From Eledone cirrhosa (lineage: Eukaryota), in the NCBI GenBank assembly GCA_964016885.1, contig OZ024748.1, positions 15,128,001-15,192,000 of the forward strand: a stretch of DNA of 64,000 bases. The letters run 5' to 3'. Numbering within the stretch: the first letter of the stretch is position 1; every line of letters begins with the position of its first letter. The position numbers and the translations under genes are program-made. Shown in pieces: positions 752 to 58,495 of this stretch. The notes below the pieces were generated by a model. The model was not told the origin of the DNA. It worked only from the letters and a program-made list of their open reading frames with translations, and searched no databases.

Positions 752-837
752 GTAGGTCCCGGGTCGAGTCGGGGATAACCACAGTAAGTAAGGTACTCAA
801 TACATAGCAGAGTGAAATATATTTATTGTATAGAAGT

Positions 838-888
838 AGCTTCTACAGGACTAGAACTGTTTCATTCAGATGAAATCTTCAGGAAGCT
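838..888 (-). ncRNA. Type I hammerhead ribozyme motif (minus-strand copy)
   Basis: Reverse complement is identical to 1293-1343. Confidence 0.65.
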
Positions 889-1077
889 GGGTGTCGTATT
901 AAGTTCTGGTATTTATACATTTAGGTAGTGGTAGGGGGGGGGTAGGTTGGTATTTAGATACACAGGACCATAAAATGGCACAGACCGTTTTTTCTTTGGG
1001 GAGTGGTCAATTAGCCAGAGTGCTTTTTGTAAAATAAAAAGAAGAAGAAAAAGTAAATAAATAAATAAATAAATGAA

Positions 1078-5166: not shown

Positions 5167-5182
5167 TGAGAGTGAGAGAGTA

Positions 5183-5845
5183 AATTACCAGTGGAGGAGG
5201 GTGTTCTGAAAGTACAGTAGCCAGAGTAAGAACGAGATGGAGTAAGTTCAGGGAGCTGCTACCACTGTTGGTTACAAAAGGTTTTCCCTTAAAATGAAAG
5301 GAATATTGTATGATGCATGTATATGAACAGCAATGTTACATGGTAGTTAGACCTGGATACATTGTGCAAATGACCTGCGAAGATTGAAAAGAAATGAAGC
5401 ATGCATGCTCTGATGGATGTGTCATAGTAATGTACATGAATGAGAAAGCGTAAATGAACTGAGAGAGAAATTAGGCACAAGAGGGACCAGATGATGTATA
5501 CTAGAGAGGAGATTGCATTGGTACGGTTATGTGCATATGAAGGATGACAGCTGTATAAAAGGTGCAGAGCAATCAAAGTTGATAGAAACTATGGAATAGG
5601 AAGACCTGAGATGAGGTGATAAGGCTGACCTTGCGCAATTGGATCTCTCAAAGACAATGACACAGGATCGAGATCTTTGGCATTTGTAGTAATACAGAAG
5701 ACATGCTGTTTCATGCACATGGACTCAGATATACATTTTGTAGGCACCTCTTACCCCCTATACCCCCTTCCATAAACCTCCCAAGCCCCAACACCCACCC
5801 ACTGCTGTCCACAACAACCTTACACTGTAAAGTCATGTTGATATC
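5183..5845 (+). mobile_element. Old degenerate RTE LINE 3' fragment
   Basis: Translates as [27 protein letters not shown]..., homologous to the C-terminus of the intact RTE ORFs, with stops and frameshifts; preceded by (TA)n. Confidence 0.85.
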
Positions 5846-11194: not shown

Positions 11195-11372
11195 CAGCTA
11201 AATCCTATCCAATTGGTTTTCATCTAGTTTCTGTTTACCCAATGTCACTCACAAGGCATGGCTCAACCCATGACTATTGTAAATGAAACTTACCCAAGAT
11301 GCTACACTGGCATCAAACCTAGTACCTAACAATTGCAAAGCAAACTTCTTATCATTTAGCCATGCTACATCC
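11195..11372 (-). mobile_element. Old degenerate SINE (family 4)
   Basis: Reverse complement GCATGGCTAAATGATAAGAAGTTTGCTT...CTTGGGTAAG...GCCTTGTGAGTG is a tRNA-like head plus body; related copy at ~48620-48780 (-). Confidence 0.6.
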
Positions 11373-11431
11373 TATATATATATAGTTATTTAGCCATGCT
11401 GTATTATATATATATAAATATATATATATAT

Positions 11432-12904
11432 ATCGTTAACTGTTACAAGGGTAAAGAAGACGCCCTAGATAGGAGTAACTATAGAGGCATTAAATTAATC
11501 GACCAGGTCATGAAGGTCACGGAAAAAGTAATAGCGCAACTAATCAGAGAGAGAATTGATCTAGATGAAATGCAGTTCGGGTTTGTGTCAGGCAAAAGTA
11601 CCACAGACGCTCTTTTCATTGTACGACAACTACAGGAGAAGTACCTAGCTGAAAGTAAACCCCTATACTTAGCTTTTGTCGACTCGGAGAAAGCCTTCAA
11701 CAGAGTCCCCCGTTCCATTATCTGGTGGGCTCTTAGAAAACTAGGTGTTGACGAATGGCTTGTGAGAGCCATACAAGCCATGTATAAAGAAACAGTCAGC
11801 AAGGTTAGAATTAACAACGAATATAGTGAAGAGTTTAGCGTAAAAGTTGGTGTCCATCAGGGCTCTGTTCTTAGCCCCCTACTATTTATTATTGCCCTTC
11901 AGGCTATAACAGAGGAGTTCAAGACCGGCTGCCCAAGGGAACTCCTATACGCAGATGATCTAACGCTCATAGCTGAATCAATGGCCGAGCTAGAGAAGAA
12001 ATTCCAAACATGGAAGCACGGCCTAGAATCAAAAGGCCTTAAAATTAACCTGGCTAAGACTAAAGTTCTAGTTTGTAGGAAAGAAAATAAGACGCCGGTC
12101 CCCTCCGGGAAATGGCCATGCTCAGTGTGTAGGAAAGGCGTAGGTAGAAACTCCATTTTATGTCCCAAATGCAAAGTATGGGTGCATAAAAGATGTAGTG
12201 GGATCACAGGTAAGCTAACTAAGAACACAGATTTTACATGTGGCCGGTGCTCTGGTGCAATAAGTAGCAGCAAGTGCCCACGAAACACTAACTCTTTCAA
12301 TTGCGCAGAGGGTTCTATAGAAATAGTGGACAGCTTCCGTTACCTGGGTGACAAAATCAGCAATGGGGGAGGGTGCTCTGAAAGTACAGTAGCTAGAGTC
12401 AGAACTGGATGGAAAAAGTTCAGAGAGCTTATACCACTATTAGCCGCTAAAGGGTTCTCCCTAAAAATGAAAGGCAGGTTGTATGATACCTGCATACGAA
12501 CAGCAATGTTGCATGGCAGTGAGACCTGGGCATTGTGTGCAGAGGATATATGCAGACTAGAGAGGAACGAAGCTTGCATGCTCCGCTGGATGTGTAATAG
12601 TAATATACGTGAACGGCAAAGCATAAACGAACTAAGGAAAAAATTAGAAATAAGAGGGATCAGATGTTGTTTACTCGAGAGAAGGCTACGTTGGTATGGT
12701 CACGTGATGCGCATGAAAGACGACAGCTTTATAACAAAGTGCAGGGCAATAAAGATAGATGGTAGCCACGGAGTAGGCAGACCCAGGAAAACCTGGGACA
12801 AGCTGATAAATTCCGACCTCACACACTTACACCTCTCCAAGACAATGTCACTGGATCGAGACCTTTGGCGGTACTCAGTAACAGAGAAGACCCGCCTTAC
12901 CTAA
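11432..12904 (+). CDS. Truncated RTE ORF: reverse transcriptase with PHD-like zinc finger (no native start)
   Basis: [33 protein letters not shown] and RRLRWYGHV motifs. Private substitutions DSEKAFN (vs DLEKAFD) and CPREL (vs CPWEL) suggest a dead copy. The ATG at 11396 lies in flanking microsatellite. Confidence 0.85.
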   Translation: MVNCYKGKEDALDRSNYRGIKLIDQVMKVTEKVIAQLIRERIDLDEMQFGFVSGKSTTDALFIVRQLQEKYLAESKPLYLAFVDSEKAFNRVPRSIIWWALRKLGVDEWLVRAIQAMYKETVSKVRINNEYSEEFSVKVGVHQGSVLSPLLFIIALQAITEEFKTGCPRELLYADDLTLIAESMAELEKKFQTWKHGLESKGLKINLAKTKVLVCRKENKTPVPSGKWPCSVCRKGVGRNSILCPKCKVWVHKRCSGITGKLTKNTDFTCGRCSGAISSSKCPRNTNSFNCAEGSIEIVDSFRYLGDKISNGGGCSESTVARVRTGWKKFRELIPLLAAKGFSLKMKGRLYDTCIRTAMLHGSETWALCAEDICRLERNEACMLRWMCNSNIRERQSINELRKKLEIRGIRCCLLERRLRWYGHVMRMKDDSFITKCRAIKIDGSHGVGRPRKTWDKLINSDLTHLHLSKTMSLDRDLWRYSVTEKTRLT

Positions 12905-13284
12905 ATACAAAGTAAAACCTACTAGTCAGTAGGCATCTCTAACAAAATACACCCCCGTCCCACCCCATCCACACCGCCCCCTTCAATGCAAAGTTATGTT
13001 GGTGCCACAACATCCAGGCCGAATCAAACAAGATCGTGTAGGTGTCACGACAAAAAAACACACAGTCCACGCTGTAATGTGACCGTGTAGGCAACACGGT
13101 AAAAACCTCCCAGCCCCACACTGTAAATGTGGTTGGTGTTAGGAAGGGCATCCAGCTGTAGAAAACCCGCCAGACAGTCCTATGCGAGCAAGACAACCAC
13201 TCTTGCCTTAAGTGGGAAAACCCCCGTCCAAACCCATGCAAGCGTGGAACAGGGACGTTAAACGATGATGATGATGATGATGAT
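11432..13284 (+). mobile_element. RTE-clade LINE, subfamily A, 5'-truncated
   Basis: RT ORF, 3' UTR with GGTTGGTGTTAGGAAGGGCATCCAGCTGTAGAAA, (GAT)n tail; (TA)n at both junctions; highly similar to the copy at 57070-58495. Confidence 0.95.
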
Positions 13285-13293
13285 ATATATATG

Positions 13294-13369
13294 TAGGATG
13301 TAGCATGGCTAAATGATAAGAAGTTTGCTTTGCAATTGTTAGGTACTAGGTTTGATGCCAGTGTAGCAT
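13294..13369 (-). repeat. Inverted duplication of the upstream flank 11299-11374
   Basis: 76-bp exact reverse complement read directly from the sequence. Confidence 0.95.
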
Positions 13370-13371
13370 TG

Positions 13372-13524
13372 AAGGAAAAGCAAACATATTTTCAATAATA
13401 TATCATATATATATAATGTATATAAATCTTGACACACTGGCATATGTATATATATATACATATGCCAGTGTGTCAAGATTTATATATACATGATATATTA
13501 TTGAAAATATGTTTGCTTTTCCTT
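13372..13524. repeat. Long near-perfect palindrome centred on (TA)n
   Basis: AAGGAAAAGCAAACATATTTTCAATAATATATC...AATCTTGACACACTGGCATATG(TA)nCATATGCCAGTGTGTCAAGATT...GATATATTATTGAAAATATGTTTGCTTTTCCTT. Confidence 0.95.
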
Positions 13525-16981: not shown

Positions 16982-19803
16982 AATTCTGCGACGCCAATGA
17001 CATGTCGATATGTAACACAAACTTTAAAAAACCCGACAACCACCTGATCACCTATAGATCAGGGGAGCACTCTAGTCAGTTAGATTTTATCCTCATCAGA
17101 GGACGTGACAGATGGACGGTCGTAAACACAAAAGCCTTCCCTAGTGAGGAATGTACATCCCAACATAGCTTAGTTGTCAGCGACCTCACGGTCAGAACTA
17201 GACGAGCCCTGAAACAGAGGCCAACCTGGAGAAGAAAGATCTGGAAGCTGAAAGTCCCCTCAACCAGTAACAGATTTAAAGATATTTTACTCAACGCCTA
17301 CGACAGTAAAGAAGAACAGATAGAGACATTTAACGTAGAAGAGAACTGGGAGTTCCTAAAAAATAACTTACTAGAGGCGACGGATGAGGTTTGTGGCTGG
17401 AGTAAGACCTCAAGCAGGAGGAGAGTGACTTGGTGGTGGAACAATAAGGTAGATGAAGCAGTCAAGGCCAAGAGACAGGCATGGAAAGAATGGAAGAACG
17501 GGGGGAGCAGGGTACATTACATAGAGACCAAGAGGGAAGCTAGGCGACAAGTATACTTAGCTAGGAGGGAAGCAGAGGATAGAAAATTCAAGCATGTTTT
17601 ACAACGTGAGGACCAGAAACAGGAGGTATTCAAGATTGCGAGGCAGTGTGTCAGAGATAGTTGTGATGTCATTGGAGAGAAGTGTATCCGGAATGATAAA
17701 GGTGAGCTTGCCCTCACAAGTGCTGAGAAGAAAGATGCATGGAAGAGTCATTATGATAGATTACTAAATGAGGAGAATGCATGGGAAGAAGAGACCCTAC
17801 CCCACGTAGACCCTATAGAGGGACCAGCAGTACAAGTCAGCGGCAGCGTAGTAAGTAAGGCAATCAGAGATATGAAGATAGGGAAGGCAACCGGTCCATC
17901 GGGTATAGCTGCCGAGATGCTGAAGGCATCTGGGTCTGTAGGTCACACTATAACCACACGTATCGTTAACCAGGTAATACTAGAGGGGGCCATACCAAAA
18001 GATTGGTGCAGTAGCATCATTGTCAACTGCTACAAAGGTAAAGGCGATGCACTAGATAGAGGAAACTATAGAGGTATAAAGTTGATGGACCAGGTCATGA
18101 AAGTAACAGAAAGAGTTATAGCACAGCTGATTAGGGACCGGGTGAATATAGACGAGATGCAATTTGGGTTTGTTCCAGGGAAAGGCACCACTGATGCGCT
18201 CTTCCTTGTGAGGCAATTACAGGAAAAGTACCTAGCTAAAAGTAAGCCACTCTACTTGGCATTTGTCGACCTTGAGAAAGCCTTTGACAGAGTTCCACGT
18301 GCAGTAATCTGGTGGGCTCTTAGAAAACTAGGAGTAGATGAATGGCTTGTGAAAGCGGTACAAGCCATGTATAGGGGAGCAGTCAGCAAAGTTAGGATTG
18401 GCAATGAGTATAGCGAGGAATTTAGCATACAGGTTGGGGTCCACCAGGGCTCTGTTCTTAGCCCTCTCCTGTTCATCATAGTCCTGCAGGCAATAACGGA
18501 GGAGTTTAAGACCGGATGCCCATGGGAACTCCTGTATGCTGATGACCTCGCACTCATAGCTGAATCTATGGTAGAACTAGAGAATAAATTCCAAACCTGG
18601 AAGCAGGGACTAGAGAGAAAGGGCCTCAAAGTCAACATGACAAAGACTAAGGTCCTTATAAGTAGACGAGAAAACAGAACCCAGATCCCCTCAGGGAAAT
18701 GGCCTTGCTCAGTATGTAGGAAAGGTGTAGGTAGGAACTCCATTCTTTGCCCCAAATGCAAACAATGGGTACACAAGAGATGTAGCGGGATCTCAGGAAG
18801 CTTAATTAAGAATGTAGGATTCACATGCAGCAACTGTGCTGAAACAGCAAGCAAACAGCCACAGGAAACAAGTACCACCAATCTCTGGGAGGGCCCTGTA
18901 GAAACAGTAGACAGCTTCTGCTACCTAGGTGACCGAATTAGCAACGGAGGTGGGTGCTCAGAAAGTACAATAACTAGGGTAAGAACGGGATGGAAGAAGT
19001 TTAGGGAACTACTACCACTGCTAGCTGCAAAAGGCTTCTCCCTCAGAATGAAAGGCAGACTGTATGATGCGTGTATCCGAACAGCGATGTTGCATGGTAG
19101 TGAGACCTGGGCGCTGAAGGTGGAAGACTTACGTAGATTAGAGAGAAACGAAGCCTGCATGCTCCGATGGATGTGTAACAGTAATATACGTGAACGACAA
19201 AGCATAAATGAATTGAGAGAGAGACTGAGCATAAGAGGAATCAAATGCTGCGTGCAGGAGAGGCGGTTACGCTGGTATGGACATGTGATGCGTATGAAGG
19301 ATGACAGCTGCATAAAAAGGTGCAGAGCACTAGAAGTTGATGGAAACCGCGGAGTGGGGAGACCCAAGATGACTTGGGATGAGGTGATAAAAGCCGACCT
19401 TACCCAACTACACCTCTCAAAGTCAATGACACACGACCGTGACTTCTGGCGTCACGCAGTAATACAGGGTACCCGACCTCCCATGGGTACATGCTGAAGC
19501 ATATAAACAATATGCCCCCCCCCCCCCCCCCCACCGCAAGGTGGTCGTGGAGGTGCCACGGCAAAAAAGCACCCAGCCCACACTGTAAAGTGGACGTGTA
19601 GGCGCCACGAAAAAGCACCCAGCACTCACTGTAAATGAGGTTGGTGTTAGGAAGGGCATCCAGCTGTAGAAATCAAGCCAGATCAGTTCCTGTATGAGCA
19701 AGGCATGGTCAGCCGACCAGACACTGCCCACAACAGGACAACCCGTCTAACCCATGCTAGCGTGGAAGAACGGACGTAAAACGGTGATGATGATGATGAT
19801 GAT
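16982..19803 (+). mobile_element. RTE-clade LINE, subfamily B, 5'-truncated within the AP-endonuclease
   Basis: Uninterrupted ORF, 3' UTR with short internal tandem units, (GAT)n tail; (TA)n at both ends. Confidence 0.95.
17002..19497 (+). CDS. RTE ORF: C-terminal part of AP-endonuclease, reverse transcriptase and PHD-like finger (831 aa from an internal Met)
   Basis: ITY..SQLDFIL..SQHSLV (APE C-terminus), [35 protein letters not shown] at 18535-18546, RRLRWYGHV. The frame is open upstream (FCDAND) to the truncation point. Confidence 0.9.
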   Translation: MSICNTNFKKPDNHLITYRSGEHSSQLDFILIRGRDRWTVVNTKAFPSEECTSQHSLVVSDLTVRTRRALKQRPTWRRKIWKLKVPSTSNRFKDILLNAYDSKEEQIETFNVEENWEFLKNNLLEATDEVCGWSKTSSRRRVTWWWNNKVDEAVKAKRQAWKEWKNGGSRVHYIETKREARRQVYLARREAEDRKFKHVLQREDQKQEVFKIARQCVRDSCDVIGEKCIRNDKGELALTSAEKKDAWKSHYDRLLNEENAWEEETLPHVDPIEGPAVQVSGSVVSKAIRDMKIGKATGPSGIAAEMLKASGSVGHTITTRIVNQVILEGAIPKDWCSSIIVNCYKGKGDALDRGNYRGIKLMDQVMKVTERVIAQLIRDRVNIDEMQFGFVPGKGTTDALFLVRQLQEKYLAKSKPLYLAFVDLEKAFDRVPRAVIWWALRKLGVDEWLVKAVQAMYRGAVSKVRIGNEYSEEFSIQVGVHQGSVLSPLLFIIVLQAITEEFKTGCPWELLYADDLALIAESMVELENKFQTWKQGLERKGLKVNMTKTKVLISRRENRTQIPSGKWPCSVCRKGVGRNSILCPKCKQWVHKRCSGISGSLIKNVGFTCSNCAETASKQPQETSTTNLWEGPVETVDSFCYLGDRISNGGGCSESTITRVRTGWKKFRELLPLLAAKGFSLRMKGRLYDACIRTAMLHGSETWALKVEDLRRLERNEACMLRWMCNSNIRERQSINELRERLSIRGIKCCVQERRLRWYGHVMRMKDDSCIKRCRALEVDGNRGVGRPKMTWDEVIKADLTQLHLSKSMTHDRDFWRHAVIQGTRPPMGTC

Positions 19804-19830
19804 TTATATATATATTTATATATATATATT

Positions 19831-19950: not shown

Positions 19951-20215
19951 TTAGAAAGTGAGGTTTTTTTTACAAAATGAAAAATAACCGATGTGTCCTA
20001 TATGAGTGAAAGTATAAAGAAAAAAAGATGAAATCGAAAATGCAACTGGAGTCTTATTTTAAAAAAAATATATATATTTATTTGGTTCCTTTACCGGTTT
20101 CACAGTTCTTCTGCTTTTCAAAAGTAGAGTTGAGATGGAGGGTCTGTCGTTTTTCTCACATCATGTGAGAAAAACCACAGACCCTCCATCTGGCTATATC
20201 GAGTCCCGACTCATT
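19951..20215 (-). mobile_element. Penelope-like pseudo-LTR fragment with minimal hammerhead variant and fold-back end
   Basis: Homologous to 49662-49916; contains TTGAAAA-GCAG..CTGT-GAAACCGGTA on the minus strand; hairpin at 20133-20191; (TA)n on both sides. Confidence 0.6.
20088..20126 (-). ncRNA. Minimal hammerhead-like motif, U3-A8 core variant
   Basis: TACTT-TTGAAAA-GCAG aagaa CTGT-GAAA-CCGG-TA-AAGG on the minus strand; palindromic CCGG stem III; stem I is short. Confidence 0.5.
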
Positions 20216-25812: not shown

Positions 25813-28800
25813 ATGAGACACTAGGTGACAAGACCAAACCTTTTGAATTAGAGGTACAACTGGCATGAGACAACAGGTGACAAGACCAAACCCTTTGAAT
25901 TAGCGGTACAACTGGCATGAGACACTAGGTGACAAGACCAAACCTTTTGAATTAGCAGTACAACTGGCATGAGACAACAGGTGACAAGACCAAACCTTTT
26001 GAATTAGCGGTACAACTGGCATGAGACAACAGGTGACAAGACCAAACCTTTTGAATTAGCGGTACAACTGGCATGAGACACTAGGTGACAAGACCAAACC
26101 TTTTGAATTAGAGGTACAACTGGCATGAGACACTAGGTGACAAGACGAAACCTTTTGAATTAGCAGTACAACTGGCATGAGACAACAGGTGACAAGACCA
26201 AACCTTTTGAATTAGCGGTACAACTGGCATGAGACACTAGGTGACAAGACCAAACCTTTTGAATTAGCGGTACAACTGGCATGAGACACTAGGTGACAAG
26301 ACCAAACCTTTTGAATTAGAGGTACAACTGGCATGAGACACTAGGTGACAAGACCAAACCTTTTGAATTAGCGGTACAACTGGCATGAGACAACAGGTGA
26401 CAAGACCAAACCTTTTGAATTAGCGGTACAACTGGCATGAGACAACAGGTGACAAGACCAAACCTTTTGAATTAGCGGTACAACTGGCATGAGACACTAG
26501 GTGACAAGACCAAACCTTTTGAATTAGCGGTACAACTGGCATGAGACACTAGGTGACAAGACCAAACCTTTTGAATTAGCAGTACAACTGGCATGAGACA
26601 ACAGGTGACAAGACCAAACCTTTTGAATTAGCGGTACAACTGGCATGAGACAACAGGTGACAAGACCAAACCTTTTGAATTAGCGGTACAACTGGCATGA
26701 GACAACAGGTGACAAGACCAAACCTTTTGAATTAGCGGTACAACTGGCATGAGACACTAGGTGACAAGACCAAACCTTTTGAATTAGCGGTACAACTGGC
26801 ATGAGACAACAGGTGACAAGACCAAACCTTTTGAATTAGCGGTACAACTGGCATGAGACAACAGGTGACAAGACCAAACCTTTTGAATTAGCGGTACAAC
26901 TGGCATGAGACACTAGGTGACAAGACCAAACCTTTTGAATTAGCGGTACAACTGGCATGAGACAACAGGTGACAAGACCAAACCTTTTGAATTAGCGGTA
27001 CAACTGGCATGAGACAACAGGTGACAAGACCAAACCTTTTGAATTAGCGGTACAACTGGCATGAGACAACAGGTGACAAGACCAAACCTTTTGAATTAGC
27101 GGTACAACTGGCATGAGACACTAGGTGACAAGACCAAACCTTTTGAATTAGCGGTACAACTGGCATGAGACAACAGGTGACAAGACCAAACCTTTTGAAT
27201 TAGCGGTACAACTGGCATGAGACAACAGGTGACAAGACCAAACCTTTTGAATTAGCGGTACAACTGGCATGAGACAACAGGTGACAAGACCAAACCTTTT
27301 GAATTAGCGGTACAACTGGCATGAGACACTAGGTGACAAGACCAAACCTTTTGAATTAGCGGTACAACTGGCATGAGACAACAGGTGACAAGACCAAACC
27401 TTTTGAATTAGCGGTACAACTGGCATGAGACAACAGGTGACAAGACCAAACCTTTTGAATTAGCGGTACAACTGGCATGAGACAACAGGTGACAAGACCA
27501 AACCTTTTGAATTAGCGGTACAACTGGCATGAGACAACAGGTGACAAGACCAAACCTTTTGAATTAGCGGTACAACTGGCATGAGACAACAGGTGACAAG
27601 ACCAAACCTTTTGAATTAGCGGTACAACTGGCATGAGACAACAGGTGACAAGACCAAACCTTTTGAATTAGCGGTACAACTGGCATGAGACAACAGGTGA
27701 CAAGACCAAACCTTTTGAATTAGCGGTACAACTGGCATGAGACACTAGGTGACAAGACCAAACCTTTTGAATTAGCGGTACAACTGGCATGAGACAACAG
27801 GTGACAAGACCAAACCTTTTGAATTAGCGGTACAACTGGCATGAGACAACAGGTGACAAGACCAAACCTTTTGAATTAGCGGTACAACTGGCATGAGACA
27901 ACAGGTGACAAGACCAAACCTTTTGAATTAGCGGTACAACTGGCATGAGACACTAGGTGACAATACCAAACCTTTTGAATTAGCGGTACAACTGGCATGA
28001 GACAACAGGTGACAAGACCAAACCTTTTGAATTAGCGGTACAACTGGCATGAGACAACAGGTGACAAGACCAAACCTTTTGAATTAGCGGTACAACTGGC
28101 ATGAGACAACAGGTGACAAGACCAAACCTTTTGAATTAGCGGTACAACTGGCATGAGACACTAGGTGACAAGACCAAACCTTTTGAATTAGCGGTACAAC
28201 TGGCATGAGACAACAGGTGACAAGACCAAACCTTTTGAATTAGCGGTACAACTGGCATGAGACAACAGGTGACAAGACCAAACCTTTTGAATTAGCGGTA
28301 CAACTGGCATGAGACAACAGGTGACAAGACCAAACCTTTTGAATTAGCGGTACAACTGGCATGAGACAACAGGTGACAAGACCAAACCTTTTGAATTAGC
28401 GGTACAACTGGCATGAGACAACAGGTGACAAGACCAAACCTTTTGAATTAGCGGTACAACTGGCATGAGACACTAGGTGACAAGACCAAACCTTTTGAAT
28501 TAGAAGTACAACTGGCATGAGACACTAGGTGACAAGACCAAACCTTTTGAATTAGCGGTACAACTGGCATGAGACACTAGGTGAAAAGACGAAACCTTTT
28601 GAATTAGCGGTACAACTGGCATGAGACAACAGGTGACAAGACCAAACCTTTTGAATTAGCGGTACAACTGGCATGAGACAACAGGTGACAAGACCAAACC
28701 TTTTGAATTAGCGGTACAACTGGCATGAGACAACAGGTGACAAGACCAAACCTTTTGAATTAGCGGTACAACTGGCATGAGACAACAGGTGACAAGACCA

Positions 28801-30200
28801 AACCTTTTGAATTAGCGGTACAACTGGCATGAGACAACAGGTGACAAGACCAAACCTTTTGAATTAGCGGTACAACTGGCATGAGACACTAGGTGACAAG
28901 ACCAAACCTTTTGAATTAGAGGTACAACTGGCATGAGACACTAGGTGACAAGACCAAACCTTTTGAATTAGCGGTACAACTGGCATGAGACACTAGGTGA
29001 CAAGACGAAACCTTTTGAATTAGCGGTACAACTGGCATGAGACAACAGGTGACAAGACCAAACCTTTTGAATTAGCGGTACAACTGGCATGAGACAACAG
29101 GTGACAAGACCAAACCTTTTGAATTAGCGGTACAACTGGCATGAGACAACAGGTGACAAGACGAAACCTTTTGAATTAGCGGTACAACTGGCATGAGACA
29201 ACAGGTGACAAGACCAAACCTTTTGAATTAGCGGTACAACTGGCATGAGACACTAGGTGACAAGACCAAACCTTTTGAATTAGCGGTACAACTGGCATGA
29301 GACAACAGGTGACAAGACCAAACCTTTTGAATTAGCGGTACAACTGGCATGAGACACTAGGTGACAAGACCAAACCTTTTGAATTAGAGGTACAACTGGC
29401 ATGAGACACTAGGTGACAAGACCAAACCTTTTGAATTAGCGGTACAACTGGCATGAGACACTAGGTGACAAGACGAAACCTTTTGAATTAGAGGTACAAC
29501 TGGCATGAGACAACAGGTGACAAGACCAAACCTTTTGAATTAGCGGTACAACTGGCATGAGACAACAGGTGACAAGACCAAACCTTTTGAATTAGCGGTA
29601 CAACTGGCATGAGACAACAGGTGACAAGACCAAACCTTTTGAATTAGCGGTACAACTGGCATGAGACAACAGGTGACAAGACCAAACCTTTTGAATTAGC
29701 GGTACAACTGGCATGAGACAACAGGTGACAAGACCAAACCTTTTGAATTAGCGGTACAACTGGCATGAGACACTAGGTGACAAGACCAAACCTTTTGAAT
29801 TAGCGGTACAACTGGCATGAGACACTAGGTGACAAGACGAAACCTTTTGAATTAGCGGTACAACTGGCATGAGACAACAGGTGACAAGACCAAACCTTTT
29901 GAATTAGCGGTACAACTGGCATGAGACACTAGGTGACAAGACCAAACCTTTTGAATTAGCGGTACAACTGGCATGAGACAACAGGTGACAAGACCAAACC
30001 TTTTGAATTAGCGGTACAACTGGCATGAGACACTAGGTGACAAGACCAAACCTTTTGAATTAGAGGTACAACTGGCATGAGACACTAGGTGACAAGACCA
30101 AAGTCTTTGAATTACAGGTACAATTTATCTGAGACAATAGACAACAAGACCAAACCTTTTGAATTACAGGTACAATCAGTTTGAAACAATAGGTGACAAA
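25813..30200. repeat. 52-bp minisatellite, ~84 copies, highly homogeneous
   Basis: Unit GGCATGAGACA(AC/CT)AGGTGACAAGACCAAACCTTTTGAATTAGCGGTACAACT; period measured as 52 (25861 to 25913); degenerate units at the 3' edge. Confidence 0.98.
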
Positions 30201-30563
30201 ACATATACATACATAACATATGCAATCTATTTCACAAACTTCCTTCCACACATTATTAAACTCTTGTTTGAAAAATAATTTTAAATGTTCCGGCATAAAC
30301 AATTTATTGGCATTGGCAGTTTACATTTAAAATATACATGCATTAAAACAGACAGGTATGTGTCATAGAATAGGGGAAAACCTCAGGCAGGTTGGTATTA
30401 AGAGGGTTAAAGCATTCTAAAACATAAAAAAAATTAAATGATAAAAGAGTGAAAGACATTTTTCTTACTCTTCAAAATTTTAATTAACTGTCAAAGATAC
30501 ATATTAATATTTTGTTCTTTTAAAATCTGAATTTGGATATAATGATTGATCATACATGTGTGC

Positions 30564-49612: not shown

Positions 49613-49661
<49 letters not shown>

Positions 49662-49668
<7 letters not shown>

Positions 49669-49912
49669 GTGAGGTTTTTTACAAAATGAAAAATAACCGA
49701 GGTGTCCTACATGAGTGAAAGTATAAAGAAAAAAAGATGAAATCAAAAATGCAACTGGAGTCTTATTTTTTAAAAAATGTATTTATTTGGTTCCTTTATC
49801 GACAGACCCTCCATCGCAACTCTACTTTTGAAAAGCAGAAGGACTGAGAGACCGATAAAGGAACCAAATAAATATATTTTTTTTTTAAATAAGACCCCAG
49901 TTGCATTTTCGA

Positions 49913-49916
<4 letters not shown>
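49662..49916. mobile_element. Penelope-like pseudo-LTR with internal inversion
   Basis: 49662-49801 matches 19951-20095; 49801-49916 is the opposite-strand copy containing TTGAAAAGCAG..CTGAGAGACCGATA; arms 49740-49801 and 49853-49915 are inverted repeats. Confidence 0.65.
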
Positions 49917-49989
<73 letters not shown>

Positions 49990-56988: not shown

Positions 56989-57069
56989 CGTGTGTACATA
57001 TATATATATATATATATACGTGTGTACATATATATATATATATATATGTACATATATATATATATATAT

Positions 57070-58495
57070 ATCATCATCATCATCATCAACGTTTAACGTC
57101 CGTGTTCCACGCTTGCATGGGTTTGGACGGGGGTAGTCCCACTTGAGGCAAGAGTGATTGTCTTGCTCGCATAGGACTGTCTGGCAGGTTTTCTACAGTT
57201 GGATGCCCTTCCTAACACCAACCACATTTACAGTGTGGGTCTGGGAGGTTTTTACCGTGTTGCCTACACGGCCACATTACAGCGTGGACTGTGTGTTTTT
57301 TTGTCATGACACCTACACGATCTCATTTGTTTTGGCCTGGATGTTGTGGCACCAACATAACTTTACATAGGACGGGGTGGTGTGGATGGGTGGGGGTGGT
57401 GGCGGGATGGGGTGTATTTTGTTAGAGATGCCTACTGGCAAGGCGGGTCTTCTCTGTTACTGAGTACCGCCAAAGGTCTCGGTCCAGTGACATTGTCTTG
57501 GAGAGGTGTAAGTGTGTGAGGTCGGAGTTTATCAGCTCGTCCCAGGTTTTTCTAGGTCTGCCTATTCCGTGGCTACCGTCTATCTTTATTGCCCTGCACT
57601 TTGTTATACAGCTATCGACTTTCATGCGCATCACGTGTCCATACCAACGTAGCCTTCTCTCGAGTAAACAACATCTGATCCCTCTTATCTCTAATTTTTT
57701 CCTTAGTTCGTTTATGCTTTGCCGTTCACGTATATTACTGTTACACATCCAGCGGAGCATGCAAGCTTCGTTCCTCTCTAGTCTGCGTATATCCTCTGCA
57801 CACAATGCCCAGGTCTCACTGCCATGCAACATTGCTGTTCGTATGCAGGCATCGTACAACCTGCCTTTCATTTTTAGGGAGAACCCTTTAGCAGCTAATA
57901 GTGGTATAAGCTCTCTGAACTTTTTCCAACCAGTTCTGACTCTAGCTGCAGTACTTTCAGAGCACCCTCCCCCACTGCTGATTTTATCGCCCAGGTAACG
58001 GAAGCTGTCCACTATTTCTATAGAACCCTCTGCGCAATTGAAAGAGCTAGTATTTTGTGGGCACTTGCTGCTACTTATTGCACCAGAACACCGGCCACAT
58101 GTAAAATCTATGTTCTTAGTTAGCTTACCTGTGATCCCACTACATCTTTTATGCACCCATACTTTGCATTTAGGACATAAAATGGAGTTTCTACCTACGC
58201 CTTTCCTACACACCGAGCACGACCATTTCCCAGAAGGGACCGCCGCCTTGTTTTCTTTCCTACAAACTAGAACTTTGGTCTTAGCCAGGTTAATTTTAAG
58301 TCCTTTTGACTCTAGGCCGTGCTTCCATGTTTGGAATTTCTTCTCTAGCTCGGCCATTGATTCCGCTATGAGTGTCAGGTCGTCTGCGTATAGGAGTTCC
58401 CATGGGCAGCCTGTCTTGAACTCCTCTGTTATAGCCTGAAGGGCAATAATAAATAGTAGGGGGCTGAGAACAGAGCCCTGATGGACGCCAACTTT
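57070..58495 (-). mobile_element. RTE-clade LINE, subfamily A, 5'-truncated
   Basis: Open frame KVGVHQG...YADD...TRLASRHL, 3' UTR and (GAT)n tail; near-identical to 11843-13284. Confidence 0.95.
57422..58495 (-). CDS. Truncated RTE RT with PHD-like finger (no native start)
   Basis: Intact frame; the N-terminal YI-rich part of the 622-aa ORF call is microsatellite read-through. Confidence 0.8.

What the first reader, a model, noticed from the sequence alone, without database searches (positions are those of the whole stretch)
11299..13524. LINE insertion site wrapped in a double fold-back: both flanks inverted-duplicated at a (TA)n target
Seen in sequence: flank U (11299-11374) - (TA)n - a 13-bp re-copy of U (ATTTAGCCATGCT, 11388-11400) - (TA)n - RTE LINE - (GAT)n(TA)n - exact 76-bp reverse complement of U (13294-13369) - reverse complement of flank D (13372-~13445) - (TA)n - D (to 13524). 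U belongs to an old decayed SINE, so a perfect copy must be a local, recent duplication. The order U' then D' is not a simple inversion. It is what results if both ends of a break in (TA)n fold back, self-prime, copy ~75 bp of their own flank and are then joined. Inference: cleavage of a (TA)n hairpin/cruciform (by the LINE endonuclease or a host nuclease) repaired by snap-back synthesis, instead of an ordinary TSD.
Basis: partly seen in the sequence, partly recalled or inferred. Interest (0 to 1): 0.78.

Follow-up and report, generated by a model that had tools for sequence, protein, structure and literature searches.

The report
Retrotransposon wrapped in mirrored flanks
A jumping gene inserted in a TA repeat carries mirror-image copies of about 75 bases from both of its flanks, likely a rare repair scar left when both ends of the cut folded back on themselves, and not a habit of this element family.

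Summary
The structure is real. U/U' match exactly over 76 bp, and D'/D (75 and 66 bp) differ by one slip in an inner TA tract. Short-read contigs from one sample carry the U'-D' joint and the palindrome centre. No empty allele was found. The element is a young, 5'-truncated non-LTR copy whose family prefers TA-like runs (70 of 98 tails). The pattern is not a family signature: 0 of 63 siblings show a local wrap. Junction-abutting local inverted repeats occur at 5 of 165 sibling junctions against 26 of 770 ordinary TA edges. One LINE-free 75-bp fold-back at TA is confirmed genome-wide; no double one was seen at 1180 TA sites. Best reading (0.5): one insertion event in which both ends of a self-complementary target folded back and the cDNA-bearing end was flipped. 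Each half is known from human L1 (short fold-backs, 0.3% of insertions; inversion at the RT end). I did not find both combined in print. The scan noted fold-back scars at a fungal LINE before. New variant of a known kind; low to moderate interest.

The parts
11299..11374 (+). U: left flank, 5' head of an old SINE lying on the minus strand, plus the first TA
11373..11384 (.). (TA)6, left half of the inferred target
11385..11433 (+). 5' junction filler: 13-nt direct re-copy of U (11388-11400 = 11354-11366) and a second TA run; AT microhomology with the element at 11432-11433
   Evidence: longer siblings read ...CATCAT before the same breakpoint
11434..13263 (+). 5'-truncated non-LTR retrotransposon (RVT_1 + PHD, open frame to 12904, 3' UTR); 0.93% from its subfamily majority
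13264..13293 (+). (GAT)7 tail followed by a short TA run with one mismatch to the TA run beside U
13294..13369 (-). U': exact 76-bp inverted copy of U
13370..13371 (+). 2-nt insertion (TG) at the U'/D' joint, no microhomology
13372..13446 (-). D': inverted copy of D, 9 nt longer through a slip in an inner TA tract
13447..13458 (.). (TA)6 at the palindrome centre; two lengths seen in short-read contigs
13459..13524 (+). D: right flank, no close copy elsewhere in the genome

Best explanation
The locus is a young non-LTR retrotransposon lying in a (TA)n target with both ~75-bp flanks duplicated in inverted orientation, likely the scar of a single insertion in which both ends of the cut folded back on the self-complementary TA repeat. 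Shown: the layout, the local origin of both copies, the family's preference for TA-like targets, and the polarity (tail against U', so the cDNA primer read U-(TA)n-3'). Inferred steps: (1) the target is cut in (TA)n and the left end's top strand, U-(TA)n-3', primes reverse transcription on the (GAT)n tail. (2) Because (TA)n pairs with itself, the truncated cDNA end anneals to the TA run of its own strand instead of the other end; the 13-nt re-copy of U would be an aborted first try. It then copies back through U, closing a stem-loop with the element in the loop. (3) The free right end snaps back at its own TA run and copies D, with one slip. (4) The two folded ends are opened about 75 nt from their tips, or the copies unwind; they are filled in and joined with a 2-nt insertion. 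This flips the element relative to its priming end and leaves U-TA-LINE-tail-TA-U'-D'-TA-D. No function is proposed; it is a repair product.
For: One event accounts for both duplications, their similar length (76 and 75 nt), the element in the loop and the re-copy of U at the 5' junction. Ages agree: the element differs from the majority of 73 siblings at 17 of 1830 columns (0.93%, the family median), and the arms show no substitution outside TA tracts in about 140 bp. That has P=0.07 even at the element's age and less if older. None of the 9 LINE-free TA-centred candidates has perfect arms (93-98%; L235 has an additional perfect 28-bp segment with a wider spacer). No LINE-free double fold-back was seen at 1180 TA sites, so a ready-made target would be rare. 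[quoted passage not shown] PMC10191854 (passage) reports short fold-back inverted duplications of about 52-220 bp in 3 insertions (0.3%). PMC4245944 (passages) states that extra 5' nucleotides of a zebrafish LINE are largely copied from the flanks.
Against: No empty allele or intermediate was recovered, so the order of events is not shown. No sibling repeats the layout (0 of 63, upper 95% bound 4.6%; 3 more long copies also negative). Local inverted repeats are no more frequent at element junctions than at ordinary TA edges (5 of 165 vs 26 of 770), and fold-back at TA happens without any LINE, so the LINE need not be causal. Zero arm substitutions are slightly better explained by arms younger than the element. 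Arm-to-arm gene conversion could also erase differences (general knowledge, not tested). Steps 2 and 4 cannot be told apart from other template-switch chains by sequence alone.
Confidence: 0.5

Rival explanations
1. Palindrome first. A LINE-independent break in (TA)n was repaired by double snap-back, giving U-TA-U'-D'-TA-D. The element later inserted normally into the first TA run, primed from the bottom strand of U'.
For: LINE-free TA-centred fold-backs exist (L128: 75-bp arm, 97% to its partner vs 91% or less elsewhere). The family targets TA-like runs (70 of 98 tails) and has thousands of candidates (3358 and 2407). There is no enrichment at junctions. The polarity needs no flip. TA cruciform cleavage and Pol theta repair are described (PMC13645644, passages), as is snap-back synthesis (PMC5728401, passages).
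Against: Needs a double fold-back, seen at 0 of 1180 TA sites, plus an insertion into it. Arms older than the element should carry more than 2.6 differences; none is seen outside TA tracts.
Confidence: 0.2
2. Element first. After an ordinary insertion, a later break in the tail-side TA run was resected by more than 1.9 kb. Its TA end annealed to the TA run beside U and copied U', while the right end snapped back on D.
For: Explains perfect arms best. Inverted repeats abut TA runs far more often than by chance in this genome (46 of 80 candidate events vs 3.6 expected).
Against: The end must bypass its own adjacent TA hairpin in favour of a site 1.9 kb away. No LINE inside a local TA-anchored loop was found in 1.4 Mb holding 34 such tails or in 63 siblings.
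Confidence: 0.15
3. Tandem duplication then flip. Staggered cuts or a small U-TA-D circle (about 160 bp) gave U-TA-D-U-TA-D. The inner D-U piece between the two self-complementary TA runs was then inverted, with the element captured at one TA run.
For: Gives the exact order, including the blunt D/U joint with a 2-nt insertion. Sibling L017 sits in the first TA run of a direct U-TA-D triplication of about 195 bp. 8 TA-containing tandem duplications were found in the background (loci with more than 40 direct repeats skipped).
Against: Needs two rare steps, and the second creates palindromes. It does not explain the slip in D/D' or the re-copy of U any better than synthesis at the break does.
Confidence: 0.1
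4. Assembly or library fold-back artefact.
For: The LINE junctions were not bridged by the contigs, and the supporting sample may be the assembled individual.
Against: The U'-TG-D' joint appears in 3 of 3 runs at depth 6.8-10.5 against 11-14 for unique flank. A flank contig ends 30 nt into U, as a de Bruijn graph would if U is duplicated. The arms differ by a slip, and the centre has two lengths.
Confidence: 0.03

Closest known systems
Short fold-back inversion (inverted duplication) 5' of somatic human L1 insertions (PMC10191854, passage read)
   Same: Local flank copied in inverted orientation at a non-LTR insertion; 52-220 bp there, about 75 bp here; rare (3 insertions, 0.3%, there; 0 of 63 siblings here).
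   Different: There one flank, lying 5' of the element, in somatic human cells. Here both flanks, both copies lying 3' of the tail, the element inside one inverted pair, a (TA)n target, an APE-type element with a (GAT)n tail, present in an assembled animal genome.
[quoted passage not shown]
   Same: Self-annealing 3' overhang, a TA/AT micro-hairpin as primer, and one case in which the inversion includes the element.
   Different: Described there as separate outcomes, with deletion or a TSD-like overlap. Here both would occur at one site, with duplication on both ends.
Snap-back synthesis-dependent MMEJ (PMC5728401, passages) and Pol theta repair of cleaved TA cruciforms (PMC13645644, passages)
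   Same: Fold-back priming at inverted repeats, templated inserts, TA repeats as break sites.
   Different: The final U'/D' joint has no microhomology. The copies (about 75 nt) seem longer than typical inserts (my recollection, not checked in those papers). Enzyme involvement is untested here.
Flank-derived 5' extra nucleotides of LINE inserts (PMC4245944, passages)
   Same: The 13-nt re-copy of U at the 5' junction.
   Different: Accounts only for the short filler, not for the two long inverted copies.

Membership tests
LINE insertion with fold-back inverted duplication (L1 type) | Non-LTR insertion with RT, 3' tail and 5' truncation | tested here: met
LINE insertion with fold-back inverted duplication (L1 type) | Local flank duplicated in inverted orientation, tens to a few hundred bp | tested here: met
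LINE insertion with fold-back inverted duplication (L1 type) | Duplication lies 5' of the element, on the reciprocal end only | tested here: not met
   Both inverted copies lie 3' of the tail and both flanks are copied
LINE insertion with fold-back inverted duplication (L1 type) | Duplication and insertion arose in one event (absent from the pre-insertion allele) | tested here: inconclusive
   No empty allele recovered; ages compatible
RTE-clade non-LTR retrotransposon | APE-type endonuclease upstream of RT | tested here: met
   PF14529 then RVT_1 in a long sibling, in two overlapping frames in that copy; absent from the truncated focal copy
RTE-clade non-LTR retrotransposon | Short tandem-repeat 3' tail | tested here: met
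   (GAT)7; GAT tails in the siblings. The feature is described for RTE elements in PMC6007223 (abstract only)
RTE-clade non-LTR retrotransposon | RT groups with RTE in a phylogeny | not tested
No reference RT set at hand; Atlas hits only say RVT_1+PHD.
Family-wide insertion signature | The structure recurs at sibling copies above background | tested here: not met
   0 of 63 local wraps; 5 of 165 vs 26 of 770
Pol theta / SD-MMEJ snap-back product | Primer inverted repeat at the fold-back point | tested here: met
   (TA)6 at both fold points
Pol theta / SD-MMEJ snap-back product | Microhomology at the final joint | tested here: not met
   2-nt insertion, no overlap; a nearby shared 10-mer was not used
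Pol theta / SD-MMEJ snap-back product | Dependence on Pol theta | not testable with these tools
   Needs genetics
MITE or foldback transposon (U'-D' as a mobile unit) | Dispersed near-identical copies | tested here: not met
   Only local matches for U' and for D'-D (only the best 40 candidates were scored in each)

The most novel reading that the evidence does not exclude
Self-complementary (TA)n targets let a LINE's cDNA close onto its own priming strand, so both break ends become hairpins that are opened off-centre. Retrotransposition into TA repeats would then be one of the engines behind the many short palindromes that abut TA repeats in this genome, including abortive events that leave no element behind.
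Probability: 0.12. Interest if true: 0.6.

Novelty: new variant of a known kind. Interest (0 to 1): 0.3.

Why it matters
If it is one event, the locus is a frozen record of a retrotransposition intermediate in which both target ends were free and a self-complementary target let the cDNA close on the wrong end. That would extend fold-back outcomes known from somatic human L1 to a different element type in an assembled animal genome. As a single copy with no family enrichment and no function, it changes little by itself. The broader lead is that short inverted repeats abut TA runs far above chance in this genome, though part of that signal comes from transposon ends.

Tried and rejected
Family-wide signature: rejected. 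The wraps at L022, L050 and L054 were not counted. L022's arm belongs to a dispersed repeat (97% elsewhere). L050 and L054 share one composite 5' flank that travelled with the element; L054 (79 bp, 95%, both arms at the junctions) is the closest look-alike and remains ambiguous. L190 has a D'-TA-D palindrome (21 unique bp) about 230 simple-repeat bases after its tail, and L035 has a perfect 38-bp inverted repeat at its 5' junction; both are single-sided candidates. Thirty loci (mixed, older copies) were left out of the junction counts. One search returned nothing. Empty allele: not found. The 'local' label for background palindromes rests on a 2.0-Mb sample and overcounts: of 3 arms checked genome-wide, L128 is local, L132 is a young dispersed repeat and L096 is ambiguous. 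Mobile U'-D' unit: rejected. U' as a reverse-transcribed Pol III transcript of the local SINE: considered because U' spans the tRNA-like head, and set aside because the exact copy includes the TA upstream of the SINE start and it explains nothing about D'. A 10-nt word shared by U' (13355-13364) and D (13462-13471) has chance 0.018 but is not at a joint; unexplained. Short templated re-copies near 5' junctions were at 11 of 67 siblings vs 75 of 754 TA edges: no clear excess. Literature: searches found no description of a double-sided case; subscription journals are mostly outside the library, and no supplements were opened, so unseen supplementary junction tables of the two L1 papers could hold one.

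Full report
Observation. The layout is as described. U (11299-11374) and 13294-13369 are exact reverse complements over 76 bp and do not extend outward. D' (13372-13446, 75 nt) pairs with D (13459-13524, 66 nt) around (TA)6. The two differ by a 9-nt indel and one mismatch inside an inner TA tract, and the hairpin folds at -66.2 kcal/mol, z -20.9. U' and D' are joined by two bases without microhomology. The 5' junction holds a 13-nt direct re-copy of U and a second TA run. The element (11434-13263) is a 5'-truncated non-LTR copy with RVT_1 and PHD matches and a (GAT)7 tail. A long sibling carries an APE-type endonuclease. The RTE clade label was not tested by a tree. The genome is 3.0 Gb; that it is a cephalopod is my recalled impression from its repeats, not a result.

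The copies are local. Among 40 scored of 1095 candidates, the only 100% match to U is the local copy; the family is 75-82% alike. U is the 5' head of an old SINE: 3 of 8 copies end at the same base, and the head aligns to a young SINE head above all 2000 shuffles. D has no close match elsewhere.

Not an assembly artefact, as far as testable. Three runs of one sample each give a 110-nt contig over 13340-13458, which is 30 nt of U', the 2-nt joint and the D arm. In X6 a flank contig ends 30 nt into U. The contig carries the D version of the arm, which may be graph collapse or a cleaner allele. Contigs of 48 and 50 nt span the palindrome centre. The sample may be the assembled individual, the two LINE junctions were not bridged, and no empty allele was seen.

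Family test. Four searches gave 116 sibling loci, 107 after merging 9 duplicates; 98 had a usable 3' junction, 67 a 5' junction and 63 both. TA-like runs (a loose definition, three or more alternating units) lie at 70 of 98 tails and 48 of 67 5' ends, so a TA target and an unreadable TSD are the norm. I counted inverted repeats (25 or more non-simple bases, 90% or more alike) that abut a junction and have no closer copy in the fetched DNA. They occur at 5 of 165 sibling junctions and at 26 of 770 edges of TA sites in 60 random 10-kb stretches (Fisher p=1.0); without the 'local' filter, 15 of 165 and 54 of 770 (p=0.33). No sibling shows a local wrap (0 of 63; three more long copies negative). 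The three raw wraps involve dispersed or co-mobilised sequence; L054 is the nearest look-alike and is ambiguous.

Background. In 140 random stretches (1.4 Mb, 1180 TA sites), 9 TA-centred palindromes had no closer copy in 2.0 Mb of fetched DNA, with arms 93-98% alike. None was double; the one abutting chain lay in dispersed repeats. Genome-wide checks of three arms show that this filter overcounts. L128 is truly local (75 bp, 97% to its partner, 91% or less elsewhere, and with a short templated re-copy beside it). L132 is a young repeat and L096 is ambiguous. So fold-back at TA without a LINE exists, but its rate is below 9 in 1180. Candidate local inverted repeats touch a TA run in 46 of 80 events against 3.6 by random placement (one satellite-rich stretch skipped); transposon ends contribute to this.

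Mechanism. The tail abuts U', so by the rules of target-primed reverse transcription the primer read U-(TA)n-3'. One event can, by inference. The left end primes the cDNA. The truncated cDNA end anneals to the TA run on its own strand, since (TA)n is self-complementary, and copies back through U after one aborted 13-nt try. The right end snaps back over D. Both folded ends are then opened or unwound about 75 nt out, filled and joined. Age favours one event or element-first over palindrome-first: the element is 0.93% from the majority of 73 siblings, while the arms have no substitution outside TA tracts in about 140 bp (P=0.07 at equal age). The lack of enrichment at junctions and the LINE-free example keep the two-step rivals alive. 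A fourth route, tandem duplication of U-TA-D followed by a flip between the two TA runs, gives the same order, and sibling L017 shows the direct-orientation form. I put these at 0.5, 0.2 (palindrome first), 0.15 (element first), 0.1 (duplicate and flip) and 0.03 (artefact).

Comparison. PMC10191854 (passage) reports short fold-back inverted duplications 5' of the target in 3 somatic L1 insertions (0.3%; about 52-220 bp of synthesis). [quoted passage not shown] PMC4245944 (passages) covers flank-derived 5' extra nucleotides. PMC5728401 (passages) and PMC13645644 (passages) cover snap-back synthesis and Pol theta repair of cleaved TA cruciforms. PMC13282606 and PMC9115989 (passages) describe octopus repeats; the first has no occurrence of 'palindrom'. 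PMC6007223 was seen as abstract and outline only, and PMC12016303 (passages) added nothing. Eight searches showed no double-sided case; supplements were not opened. An earlier scan note on a fungal LINE remnant reached a similar fold-back-scar reading; I did not check it, and it is not independent support.

Verdict. A real, tidy and rare junction: it works like known L1 fold-back and end-remodelling outcomes, combined on both ends at a self-complementary target. It fails the one-sided geometry of the described class and is not a family trait. New variant of a known kind, interest 0.3.

Noticed in passing
Random stretches L075-L134 and L225-L304: Short inverted repeats are dense in this genome (64 with spacer up to 150 nt in 600 kb). 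46 of 80 candidate local events touch a (TA)n run, against 3.6 expected. Some are true local fold-backs (L128), others transposon ends.
   Followed up: partly
L017 (G000:C18:15650362-15653752): Sibling copy in the first TA run of a direct triplication of a ~195-bp U-TA-D unit, with a 42-nt re-copy of the element's own 5' end: the direct-orientation counterpart of the finding.
   Followed up: partly
L050 and L054: Two copies on different contigs share an identical composite 5' flank (inverted LINE 3' end, SINE piece, another repeat) and the same truncation point, but differ after the tail. This looks like a chimeric non-autonomous element that moved as a unit.
   Followed up: no
window 817-905 and 1276-1364: 89-bp inverted repeat (98%) between TA runs. 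It contains CTGAAGA...GAAAC, which I recall as the hammerhead core of Penelope-like terminal repeats; related arms recur in many loci.
   Followed up: no
window 19951-20200 and 49660-49928: Two copies of a repeat that follows a LINE-type tail and TA run, each with a differently placed internal hairpin.
   Followed up: no
window 57059-58495 (minus), 18019-19814, 5182-5702: Further copies of the same LINE lineage at about 93%, 77% and 74% identity; the 57-58 kb copy sits in a long degenerate TA/TACA tract.
   Followed up: partly
window 25813-30202: Tandem array of a 52-bp unit over about 4.4 kb, 96-97% alike.
   Followed up: no
window 11304-11313, 13355-13364, 13462-13471: A 10-nt word in U is the reverse complement of one at the start of D, so the empty site already had a small inverted repeat around its TA run (chance 0.018); U' stops 5 nt past it.
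   Followed up: partly
L029 and L175: Sibling copies with a second copy of the family tail-to-tail, within 150 nt of their own tails.
   Followed up: no
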